Made by a program: the position numbers and the translations under genes
NCBI RefSeq assembly: GCF_009914755.1
Contig: NC_060940.1
DNA from: the human T2T-CHM13v2.0 reference genome, Homo sapiens
DNA: 64,000 bases
Reading direction: 5' to 3' (one strand)
Shown: piece after piece, positions 48,001 through 52,100 of the stretch
Layout: every line of letters begins with the position of its first letter
Position numbering within the stretch: position 1 is the first letter of the stretch
Notes under the pieces: generated by a model
What the model saw: only the letters and a program-made list of their open reading frames with translations
Told to the model about the DNA's origin: nothing
The model's database searches: none

Positions 48001-49133
48001 GCCTGGCCAGAATCTATTATTTATTGAGAACTTCCTCTTAATATTGTCTGATCAGCTAAAGACTGGTGAGTACTCTTTTTCACTTGTAGTATGAGGAAGC
48101 AGAAGTGAACAGCACTGCTGCTCAGCTGCAGTTGCTTCCATAGGCTTGCTAGAAGCACCAGAAGTCTCCCACTGGGCACCAGAATCTTTGGGTTGTGTGC
48201 CATCAGGTCTTATTCCATATACGGAATATTATTGCTCCTCAAAAGAAAAACATGTTGAGACAGTAGTTATTAAGAAGTCAGGCTTTGCCACAATCCCTTT
48301 TAAATACAGTACCTCAGGCCTTTCCCAACATGAATTTTAAATTCTTTCAGAATCACAAATTTTTCACAAGGACAGATGATTCATTAATTTTGCTTTGTGG
48401 AAAGAAAAGATCTCAAGTTAATTTCCACAACCTAAATGAATTGACTGTGGAGTTTAAGCTCTGGGAAAACTAAAACATACTAAGAACATTGAGTTTTAAA
48501 TGGAAGCAAGATATTTTCAGTTGATCTGCCAGTGTATGGAAATCTGCAGCATTTGCCCCTTCAGTACCATCTATCCCAATTGCATAGTCTGTGGCCTACA
48601 TGAGTATTTTTCCACTCCAGTTTGCCACATCTTTCTTGGCATCAAATTACTTTTCTACTTAAATGAAATTGCTAGTTTAACCACTGGTGAATGCACTCAT
48701 GGAAGTGAAAATGAAAACTATTTATTCAAGAGTTTCAGTAATGTTACTGCTGTGTGCATTGCATATGACCATAGTATTTTTATACTGATGATCTTTGTTT
48801 CCCTAATGTTATATTTTAAGTTGGCTGTGTATGCAGAGTAGAACTCCTTAGCAAACAAGAGTCCTCATACACATGACCCAATTTACTTCCCTAGACTTTA
48901 AGGGAGGAAATGTTGTGTACTTTGTGTACAGTTGCCCTCAATTTCATCCTGGGAAATACTTTGTTAACAGAATTCTTTTTTTTTTTTTTTGAGACTTGCT
49001 CTGTCACCCAGGCTGGAGTGCAGTGGTGCGATCTCAGCTTACTGCAACCACCACCTCCTGGGTTCAAGCAATTCTCCTGCCTCAGCCTTCCAAGTAGCTA
49101 GGACTACAGGCACGCGCCACCACGCTTGGCAAA

Positions 49134-49197
49134 TTTTTTTTTTTTTTTTTTTTTTAATTATACTCTAAGTTTTAGGGTACATGTGCACATTGTGCAG
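49134..49197 (-). mobile_element. Extremely 5'-truncated young L1 (L1HS-type 3' end, 41 nt, then T and A22) inside an Alu linker
   Basis: Minus strand CTGCACAATGTGCACATGTACCCTAAAACTTAGAGTATAAT-T-A22. Confidence 0.9.
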
Positions 49198-52100
49198 TAG
49201 AGACGGGGTTTCACCACGTTGGCCAGGCTGGTCTCAAACTCTTGACCTTGTGATTCGCCCACCTCAGCCTCCCAAAATGCTGGGATTACAGGTGTGAGCC
49301 ACCTTGCCCAGCCCAACAGAATTCATATTTAACAGATACCTCTTGTGGCCCCTTGTAAGGCAAGAATAAAGGTCTTCAGTTTTAGTTTCTTTCCTTCCCT
49401 CTCTTGTCCATTGATCCCTGGATTTGTGTTCTGGCATCCTGTTTAGTGGGCATGACATAATGGCTTTTTCTTCTATTTTCTTTCCCATTTTCTCTTTCCT
49501 TCATTAGGCATTTCCAACCTGCTTCTTTCATATTTCTCACATATGGCCCCCTAGTGATCCCAGACAAAGAAGTCTAAGGTTCTGGTAACTTTAGATGGAT
49601 TTGAAAGAGGAAAAGGTGGAATAGATAACTTTTCCTGAAATAAAACAGAAGTTTCTAATAATGCTTCTTAAAAATACTTAAATGCAACCAATGTATTATT
49701 AAAAATAACCCACTGTACGTTCATGAAATCCTTTCCATTGAGGTCCTATACTCAGCTATGTGCTTGTTAGGAAGTGATGGGAATGTAGGAACTCTTTGCT
49801 CCCACTTTTTTGTTGTTGTTGTCAAAGGCAAGGCTGGGCCTTGCTCTGTCTACCCTGGCTGGAGTGCAGTGGTGCGATCATAGCTCACAGCATCCTCTAA
49901 CTCCTGGGCTCAGGAGATTTTCCCGCCTTAGCCTCCCAAGAAACGAGAATTACAGGAGCGTGCCACCACTTGGCTAATTAAAAAAAGTTTTTTTAGTAGA
50001 GACAGGGTTCTCACTATGTTGCCTAGGGTGGTCTCGAACTCTTGGGCTCAAGTGATCCTTCTGCCTCAGCCTCCCAAGGAGCTGGAATTACAGGCATGAG
50101 TCACTGTTCCCTGCCTCCTTCTACCTTTTAGCTTTTTGTTTAGCGATCATTATTACTCTTCTCTCCAGTAGATATACTATTTGATCAAGATGTGGGTAAT
50201 TAGTCTCTAATTTCCCTACAAGAAAATATTTTCTAGGCCAGGCGCGGTGGCTCACTCCTGTAATCCCAGCACTTTGGGAGGCCAAGGTGGGTGGATCGGG
50301 AGTTCGAGACCAGCCTGACCAACATGGAGAAACCCTATCTCTACTAAAAATACAAAATTAGCCGGGCGTGGTGGTGCATGCCTGTAATCCCAGCTACTCA
50401 GGAAGCTGAGGCAGGAGAATCGCTTGAACCTGGAAGGTGGAGGTTGCGGTGAGCCAAGATCACTCCATTGCACTCCAGCCTGGGCAACAAGAGCAAAACT
50501 CCATCTCAGAAAGAAAAAAAAAAAAAGAAAATATCTTCTATAAGCCTTTGTTAATAAGGAATTGGCTGCATTTTTATTTTTATATACTTATTTTTTTTGA
50601 GACAGAGTTTTGCTCTTGTTGCCCAGGCTGGAGTGCAGTGGCGCAATCTCAGCTCACTGCAACCTCCACCTCCCAGGTTCAAGTGATTCTCCTGCCTCAG
50701 CATCCCTGGTAGCTGGGACTACAGGCGCCTGCCACCATGCCCAACTAATTTTTTGTATTTTTAGTAGAGATGGGGTTTCACCATGTTGGCCAGGCTGGGC
50801 TTGAACTCCTGATCTCAGGTGATCCACCTGCCTCAGCCTCCCAACGTGCTGGGATTACAGGCATGAGCCACACTGCGCCTGGCCTTGCATTTTTATTCTT
50901 TCAAAATATGAAAGGAATTCTTAGAGGCTTTAAAGTATAGATTTTCCTTTTCTTTTCTTTTCTTTCTTTCTTTCTTTTTTTTTTTTTTTTTTGAGAGATG
51001 GTGTCTTGCTCTGTCGTTCAGGCTGGAGTGCAGTGGCGCAATATCGGCTCACTGCAACCTCCACCTCACTGGTTCAAGTGATTCTCCTGCCTCGGCTTCC
51101 CGAGTAGCTTGGACTATAGGCGTGTGCCACCACGCCCAGCTAATTTTTGTATTTTTTCGGTAGAGATGGCGTTTCACTATACGTTGGCCAGGCTGGTTTC
51201 GAACTCCTGACCTCAGGTGATCCGCCTGCCTTGGCCTCCCAAAGTGCTGGGATTACAGGCGTGAGCCACCGCGCCTGGTCAAAGTATAGATTTTTCAAAA
51301 TCAAAATTTGATTTTATCTTACATTTTATGTTGACCAATTATAAAGTAGATAAGAAAATAAGAAAATTGACATTGTCGAGATTCAGTTTAAATGTGTATT
51401 TTAAAAATAATTTTTGATTTATTACATACCTTCAGAAAAGTGCACAGATCATAAAAACGTGCAGCTGGATGAATTTTCACAGGCTGACAATACTTTTGTT
51501 AGCAGTGCCCAGATCAGGAAACATTATCAAAACCTAAAATCCTACTCATGCACATTTTCAGGCACTTCACCTCCCATCCAAGTGTAGCCTCTAATACTGT
51601 AGCTTAGTTTTCCCTGTTTTTGAACTTCATGTAAAAATGAAAAAAATAGGCCAGGGGTGGTGGCTTATGCCTGTAATCCCAGCACTTTGGGAGGCTGAGG
51701 CAGGCGGATCACCTGAGATCAGGAGTTCGAGACCAGCCTGGCCAACATGATGAAACCCCCATCTCAACTAAAAATACAAAAATTAGCCAGGCATGGTGGT
51801 GCTCGCCGGTAATCCCAGCTACTTGGGAGGCTGAGATGGGAGAATTGCTTGAACCTGGGAGGTAGAGGTTGCAGTAAGCTGAGATAGCACCATTGCACTC
51901 CAGTCTGGGTGACACAGTGAGACTTCATCTCAAAAAAAAAAAAAAAAAGCCGGGCACGGTGGCTCATGCCTGTAATCCCAGCACTTTGGGAGGCCGAGGT
52001 GGGCGGATCACCTGAGGTCAGGAGTTTGAGACCAGCCTGACCAACATGGAGAAACCCTGTCTCTACTAAAAGTACAAAACTAGCCGGACATGGTGGTGCA

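What the first reader, a model, noticed from the sequence alone, without database searches (positions are those of the whole stretch)
49131..49205. 41-nt L1HS-type micro-insertion with target-site deletion inside an Alu linker
Seen: minus strand CTGCACAATGTGCACATGTACCCTAAAACTTAGAGTATAAT, one T and a pure A22 replace the usual gtattttt of the Alu linker. There is no TSD, and the 5' junction has a 2-nt (AG) microhomology. Established: ...AAAACTTAG with G rather than A is the L1HS-diagnostic base targeted by L1-seq primers. Inference: a very recent, probably human-specific and possibly polymorphic insertion in SNTB2 intron 1. It is too short to include the upstream ACA/ACG site, so standard L1HS assays and annotation could miss it.
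Basis: partly seen in the sequence, partly recalled or inferred. Interest (0 to 1): 0.7.

Follow-up and report, generated by a model that had tools for sequence, protein, structure and literature searches.

The report
Tiny L1HS-type insertion inside an Alu
A 41-base tail-end scrap of a young human L1 retrotransposon with its poly-A tail sits in the A-rich middle of an old Alu in SNTB2 intron 1; it is real but belongs to a well-described, ordinary class of aborted L1 insertions.

Summary
On the minus strand, 49197..49157 is a 41-mer, followed by one T (49156) and a pure A22 (49155..49134). It lies between the two arms of an old Alu that has its own 10-nt TSD.

The 41-mer matches 835 places in the same genome exactly. 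The copies examined are L1 3' ends carrying the ACA or ACG motif of L1Hs. The variant with A at the diagnostic site has 3060 exact copies, and all 18 A-type copies sampled carry GAG or GCG.

No TSD abuts the insert. The "ATAC" interruption, present in 38 of 50 other Alu linkers in the window, is missing. A 2-nt microhomology sits at the 5' junction.

Best reading (about 0.8): endonuclease-dependent target-primed reverse transcription from the linker's T-run, aborted after about 40 nt and joined by microhomology, with about 8 nt of target lost and a net gain of about 49 bp.

Human specificity and polymorphism could not be tested because no ape genomes or variant sets were available. About 7% of sampled L1Hs-type 3' ends are equally short, and the literature already describes about 30-bp TPRT products, TSD-less insertions with deletions, and the Alu-linker hotspot. 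Interest is low.

The parts
49157..49197 (-). L1 3'-terminal 41 nt (L1Hs type, G at the diagnostic site). The first 2 nt (CT, 49197-49196) are shared with the Alu left-arm end, which is the microhomology.
   Evidence: 835 exact copies in the same genome; the copies continue upstream as L1 3' UTR.
49156..49156 (-). One T between the L1 end and the A run.
   Evidence: The same T followed by at least 8 A occurs in 39 of the 835 exact copies, on ACA, ACG and GAG backgrounds.
49134..49155 (-). Pure A22: the L1 poly-A tail merged with what is left of the linker's second A run.
   Evidence: 22 copies, 100%. A first pure A run of 22 or more is seen in 12 of 59 G-type and 0 of 18 A-type copies.
49198..49314 (-). 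Left arm of the host Alu.
   Evidence: 11 of 116 positions differ from the majority of other window Alus.
48991..49133 (-). Rest of the linker (TTT) and the right arm of the host Alu.
   Evidence: 17 of 143 positions differ from the majority.
48976..48990 (-). The host Alu's own A15 tail.
49315..49324 (-). 5' copy of the host Alu's target-site duplication (GAATTCTGTT).
   Evidence: Read.
48966..48975 (-). 3' copy of the host Alu's target-site duplication (GAATTCTGTT).
   Evidence: Read.

Best explanation
This is a secondary, young L1 insertion into an old Alu, made by endonuclease-dependent target-primed reverse transcription that stopped almost at once. Inferred sequence of events: the L1 endonuclease nicked the window's plus strand at the end of the linker's T run (inferred pre-insertion plus strand ...CAAATTTTT|GTATTTTTAGTAGAG...). 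The poly-A tail of an L1Hs-lineage RNA annealed to those T's. Reverse transcription copied the tail and only about 39-41 nt of the 3' UTR. The short cDNA end was then joined to the other broken end through a 2-nt microhomology at the end of the left arm. Because the second-strand break lay on the far side of the first nick, about 8 nt of target (AAAAATAC on the Alu strand) were lost and no duplication was made. Net change is about +49 bp. Directly shown: the sequence, its identity with L1Hs-type 3' ends, the missing linker interruption, the missing TSD, and the same orientation as the Alu. Inferred: the order of events, the exact nick, the length of the deletion, and the age.
For: Identity. 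The 41-mer has 835 exact copies in the genome. The one-base variant with A has 3060. The 32 nt before the diagnostic base have 4546.

Linkage. In 24 consecutive 32-mer hits on contig 1, 6 have G, all with ACA or ACG upstream, and 18 have A, of which 17 are GAG and 1 GCG. Passages of PMC7026601 call ACA and ACG diagnostic of L1Hs Ta and pre-Ta, and GAG diagnostic of L1PA2 or older.

Age contrast. The host Alu differs from the majority of other window Alus at 28 of 259 positions, while the insert has 0 of 41 differences from the L1Hs type and a pure A22.

TPRT features. The 3' end is intact with a poly-A tail, the target is a T run, and the insert is in sense orientation relative to the Alu. This matches the linker hotspot and its explanation in PMC2836564 (passages).

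Deletion. 0 of 50 other window Alu linkers are pure A and 38 of 50 carry ATAC.

Uniqueness. The 5' junction 37-mer is unique in the genome with up to 2 mismatches, so this is one event, not a copied chimera.

Precedent. PMC1920257 states that TPRT yields L1 and Alu insertions down to about 28-30 bp. In my sample 4 of 59 distinct G-type copies are under about 75 nt.
Against: There is no TSD, which is a hallmark of classical TPRT. The inferred nick (TTTTT|G) is not the consensus TTTT|A. The pre-insertion allele was not seen, so the 8-nt deletion and the nick position rest on other Alu copies, not on the orthologous empty site. G is not a perfect marker: 4 of 30 fetched copies that share the extra T carry GAG upstream, against 0 of 30 in the unselected sample. 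Linker A runs can expand without any insertion (A21 in the Alu at window 22296), so the tail length is a weak clock. Genome counts are stated by the tool to be lower bounds.
Confidence: 0.8

Rival explanations
1. Endonuclease-independent capture. An L1 RNA or cDNA 3' end was used to patch a pre-existing break in the Alu linker (non-classical L1 insertion).
For: No TSD, loss of target bases and junction microhomology are all typical of such events, as described in PMC1920257 (passages).
Against: Two of the four criteria in that paper fail. The L1 3' end is intact and a poly-A tail is present. The site is a T run that can prime on poly-A, and the linker is a known endonuclease-linked hotspot (PMC2836564).
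Confidence: 0.08
2. The mechanism is the same, but the source was an older, L1PA2-like lineage (GAG type that also carries G), or an A-type copy that later mutated A to G. The insertion could then be shared with other apes and fixed.
For: 4 of 30 fetched copies with the same extra T have GAG upstream together with G (L039, L041, L053, L056). Among the 15 of those with T plus an uninterrupted A tail, 2 are GAG, 12 are ACA and 1 is too short to judge (my reading). The A-type has many one-mismatch neighbours: 10250 within 1 mismatch against 3060 exact.
Against: 0 of 30 unselected G-type copies are GAG. 18 of 18 sampled A-type copies have degenerate or short tails, with a longest first A run of 16 against 22 here.
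Confidence: 0.1
3. The chimera arose in one step when the Alu itself was copied. The reverse transcriptase switched from Alu RNA to an L1 RNA tail at the linker and back again.
For: The L1 piece and the Alu share one orientation, and template switching by the L1 enzyme is known. The same window holds a U6 pseudogene fused to an mRNA 3' end inside another Alu linker.
Against: The Alu is old (28 of 259 differences, 13 of them CpG-type), whereas the piece is the youngest L1 type with no change in 41 nt and a pure A22. The junction is unique in the genome.
Confidence: 0.01

Closest known systems
Severely 5'-truncated L1 insertions made by TPRT (minimum about 28-30 bp; PMC1920257, passages seen)
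   Same: Intact 3' end, poly-A tail, extreme 5' truncation and a T-rich target. Three same-genome examples with TSDs were seen here: L005, L012 and L021.
   Different: This copy has no TSD and has lost target bases.
L1 (retrotransposon) insertion-mediated deletions. 'RIMD' and no-TSD human-specific elements are catalogued in PMC6191304 (passages). The original L1 insertion-mediated deletion study of human and chimpanzee is recalled only; the paper is not held.
   Same: An L1 insert replaces target bases and no TSD is made. A second example was seen in this genome: L035, about 56 nt, whose host L1 lacks most of a 28-nt stretch present in 44 of 45 other copies.
   Different: The deletion here is very small (about 8 nt) and is inferred from paralogous Alus, not from an outgroup allele.
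Alu-linker hotspot for nested retroelement insertions (PMC2836564, passages)
   Same: Sense-orientation insertion at the A-rich linker, explained by priming on the antisense T run next to suboptimal endonuclease sites.
   Different: That work describes mainly Alu-into-Alu insertions just after the linker, where the linker serves as a hidden TSD. Here the insert sits at the start of the linker and part of the linker is gone.
Non-classical (endonuclease-independent) L1 insertions (PMC1920257)
   Same: No TSD, target deletion and microhomology.
   Different: Those lack the L1 3' end and the poly-A tail and sit at sites unlike the endonuclease consensus. This one keeps both and sits on a T run.

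Membership tests
L1Hs (Ta / pre-Ta) L1 subfamily | G at the 3' UTR site targeted by the L1-seq 'G' primer | tested here: met
   The 23-nt primer string printed in PMC4579339 lies wholly inside the piece. G-type has 835 exact copies and A-type 3060.
L1Hs (Ta / pre-Ta) L1 subfamily | ACA (Ta) or ACG (pre-Ta) trinucleotide about 50 nt upstream of the 41-mer | not testable with these tools
   The piece is truncated 3' of that site. By association, 51 of 55 judged G-type copies carry ACA/ACG or a one-base variant, and 4 carry GAG.
L1Hs (Ta / pre-Ta) L1 subfamily | Absent from the orthologous site in non-human primates | not testable with these tools
   No primate genome is held. Only the window's own assembly could be searched.
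Classical endonuclease-dependent TPRT insertion | Intact L1 3' end followed by a poly-A tail | tested here: met
Classical endonuclease-dependent TPRT insertion | Flanking target-site duplication | tested here: not met
   no abutting direct repeat of 6 nt or more.
Classical endonuclease-dependent TPRT insertion | Insertion at a TTTT|A-like endonuclease site | tested here: inconclusive
   The tail abuts a T run on the plus strand. The inferred pre-insertion site is TTTTT|G, reconstructed from other Alu linkers, not from the empty allele.
Non-classical (endonuclease-independent) L1 insertion, criteria of PMC1920257 | 3' truncation of the L1 and absence of a poly-A tail | tested here: not met
   The piece runs to the L1 end and carries A22.
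Non-classical (endonuclease-independent) L1 insertion, criteria of PMC1920257 | Absence of a TSD | tested here: met
L1 insertion-mediated deletion | Target bases present in the pre-insertion allele are missing next to the insert | tested here: inconclusive
   By proxy only: 0 of 50 other window Alu linkers are pure A and 38 of 50 carry ATAC. The true empty allele was not available.

The most novel reading that the evidence does not exclude
The insert is a human-specific allele that still segregates. It sits right at the 50-bp border between indel and structural-variant callers and is invisible to ACA-anchored L1 assays. It would be one of a class making up several percent of all L1Hs events, so counts of recent L1 activity are systematically low. 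In addition, its U22 tract with new AG dinucleotides in the SNTB2 pre-mRNA (antisense Alu) could change binding of U-tract proteins or cryptic exon use.
Probability: 0.2. Interest if true: 0.3.

Novelty: new member of a known kind. Interest (0 to 1): 0.15.

Why it matters
The finding matters little by itself. It is a neat, fully readable example of an aborted L1 insertion with a small target loss in the Alu-linker hotspot. In my sample, 4 of 59 L1Hs-type 3' ends are shorter than about 75 nt. This is a reminder that targeted L1 assays and size-thresholded variant callers under-count such events. The locus could serve as a lineage or population marker if it proves polymorphic. No effect on SNTB2 is indicated: no exon is annotated there.

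Tried and rejected
- **No L1 comparison inside the window.** It holds no other L1 3' end with up to 3 mismatches to a 16-mer or to the 41-mer.
- **The extra T as a lineage marker.** The first sample suggested a pre-Ta link (3 of 3 were ACG). The wider sample rejected it: ACA 15, ACG 10, GAG 4, too short 1, of 30.
- **The L1 insertion-mediated deletion paper** is not held.
Whether the locus is already catalogued stays open.
- **A paper search for SNTB2 together with L1HS** gave one paper, unrelated by its title (listing only).
- **PMC12633430** gave nothing on short L1 (passages).
20 stretches of 212 nt were fetched instead.
- **The one-step template-switch origin** was considered and rejected on the age contrast.

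Full report
**What is there**

Read on the minus strand, an Alu starts at 49314 and ends with an A15 tail at 48990..48976. It is flanked by a 10-nt direct repeat, GAATTCTGTT, at 49324..49315 and 48975..48966.

Its left arm ends ...GTCTCTA at 49198. In most other Alus of the window an A-rich linker of 17-20 nt follows. Here a 41-mer follows instead (49197..49157), then one T (49156), then 22 uninterrupted A (49155..49134), then TTT and the right arm.

The 41-mer occurs once in the window, and no shuffle of 100 gave a match.

**What the 41-mer is**

The window's own assembly could be searched.
- The 41-mer has 835 exact copies and 4068 within one mismatch.
- In the first 30 exact copies on contig 1, 27 continue upstream as one and the same long repeat, the L1 3' UTR. 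At the site about 50 nt upstream, 15 carry ACA, 11 carry ACG and 1 carries TCA. The other 3 are too short to reach that site.
- Passages of PMC7026601 name ACA and ACG as diagnostic of L1Hs Ta and pre-Ta, and GAG as L1PA2 or older.
- Passages of PMC4579339 print the L1-seq diagnostic 'G' primer. That 23-nt string lies wholly inside the piece. The same passages print the upstream 'AC' primer.
- PMC7035633 shows the same two-step primer design.

**How good a marker the G is in this genome**

The 32 nt before the diagnostic base have 4546 exact copies, and the variant with A has 3060.

Among the first 24 consecutive 32-mer hits on contig 1, 6 have G and all are ACA or ACG. The other 18 have A, of which 17 are GAG and 1 is GCG. 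The marker is good but not perfect. Among 30 fetched copies chosen because they share the extra T, 4 combine G with GAG.

Over all 59 distinct G-type copies seen, the tally is ACA 32, ACG 18, GAG 4, TCA 1 and too short 4. This pooled sample is not random, because half of it was chosen for the T.

The A-type has 10250 copies within one mismatch. Chance A-to-G changes could therefore supply a few percent of the G-type copies. I put about 0.9 on an L1Hs-lineage source.

**The extra T**

39 of the 835 exact copies have the same T followed by at least 8 A. The first sample hinted at a pre-Ta link. The larger sample showed the T on all three backgrounds, so it does not place the source.

**Age contrast**

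The host Alu differs from the per-column majority of 69-78 other Alu copies of the window at 28 of 259 positions, 13 of them CpG-type. The insert has no difference in 41 nt from the youngest L1 type, and it has a pure A22.

A first pure A run of 22 or more was seen in 12 of 59 G-type copies and in 0 of 18 A-type copies; the A-type maximum is 16. This clock is weak. The Alu at window 22296 has a linker run of A21 without any insertion, and up to 5 of the 22 A's here may be target bases.

**Target site**

51 Alu copies in the window have both arm boundaries recognised. Of the 50 others, none has a pure-A linker and 38 carry ATAC. The commonest form is CT, A5, TAC, A5, TTA, which is 18 nt.

The finding has 67 nt between the same landmarks and no ATAC. 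The simplest reconstruction is that 57 nt were added and 8 nt (AAAAATAC) were lost, a net gain of about 49 bp. The added 57 nt are 39 nt of L1, one T and about 17 A.

No direct repeat of 6 nt or more abuts the insert. The CT at 49197-49196 could belong to the Alu arm end or to the L1, which gives a 2-nt microhomology.

**Mechanism**

The intact L1 end, the poly-A tail, the T-run target and the sense orientation relative to the Alu all fit endonuclease-dependent target-primed reverse transcription. PMC2836564 (passages) describes the Alu linker as an insertion hotspot for just this reason. The antisense T run serves for priming, and suboptimal endonuclease sites lie at both ends of the linker.

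The missing TSD and the lost bases mean that the second-strand break lay on the other side of the first nick. The 2-nt overlap fits microhomology-guided joining of a very short cDNA. These steps are inferred, not shown.

The endonuclease-independent route (PMC1920257) shares the missing TSD, the deletion and the microhomology. By that paper's own criteria, however, it requires a 3'-truncated L1 without a tail, which is not the case here. I give it about 0.08.

A one-step origin by template switching during the Alu's own insertion is rejected on the age contrast and on the uniqueness of the junction (one hit, itself).

**How unusual it is**

It is not very unusual.
- In the unselected sample, 3 of 30 exact copies are under about 75 nt (L005, L012, L021; each with a TSD by my reading).
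- L021 is a 42-nt piece that starts at almost the same L1 base and also sits in an Alu.
- In the T-selected sample, 1 of 30 is about 56 nt (L035). It has no TSD, and the host L1 lacks most of a 28-nt stretch that 44 of 45 other copies keep. This is the same architecture as the finding.
- PMC1920257 mentions TPRT products down to about 28-30 bp.
- PMC6191304 catalogues human-specific elements nested in other elements, without TSDs and with insertion-mediated deletions.
- PMC7026601 mentions polymorphic L1 calls too short to reach the diagnostic motif.
- PMC4579339 states that L1-seq misses insertions truncated 3' of the diagnostic nucleotides.

**What stays open**

Human specificity and polymorphism could not be tested. 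No primate genome, second human assembly or variant set was at hand. The claim that annotation misses the piece could not be tested either, and I think it unlikely. A search for SNTB2 together with L1HS found one paper, unrelated by title, so I found nothing in print on this locus with that single search.

**Verdict**

This is a real and correctly described feature. It is a new member of a known kind and is of low interest.

Noticed in passing
window 14295-14440, minus strand: A second retro-insertion sits in an Alu linker in the same window. After an Alu left arm and the linker comes the annotated U6 pseudogene (RNU6-22P). It is fused at its T-run end to about 150 nt that end in an AATAAA signal and an A run, which looks like the 3' end of a cellular mRNA. 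This resembles a U6-mRNA chimeric retro-pseudogene made by template switching (that interpretation is recalled, not tested).
   Followed up: partly
L035 (G000:C1:175353351-175353400 region): An L1Hs-type micro-insertion of about 56 nt, with the same extra T and an A26 tail, lies inside an older L1. It has no TSD. The host lacks most of a 28-nt stretch present in 44 of 45 other L1 copies.
   Followed up: partly
L021 (G000:C1:95790320-95790360 region): A 42-nt L1Hs-type piece starts at almost the same L1 base as the finding. It is inserted near the 3' end of an Alu, with an 8-nt TSD (AAAAACTC) and an A13 tail.
   Followed up: partly
L003, L006, L007, L009, L016, L019, L020, L030, L038, L040, L053, L058: Many ACG (pre-Ta) copies, and one GAG copy, share a patterned tail of about 12 A, TT, then about 15 or more A. 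This suggests the tail pattern is inherited from a source lineage rather than made anew at each insertion.
   Followed up: no
L039, L041, L053, L056: These copies combine the 'old' GAG motif with the 'young' G and the extra T. They are 4 of 30 in the T-selected sample, against 0 of 30 in the unselected sample. This may be an intermediate lineage.
   Followed up: no
window 22296 (minus strand Alu linker): This Alu linker has its second A run expanded to A21 without any inserted element. Long pure A runs in linkers therefore arise without L1 insertion.
   Followed up: no
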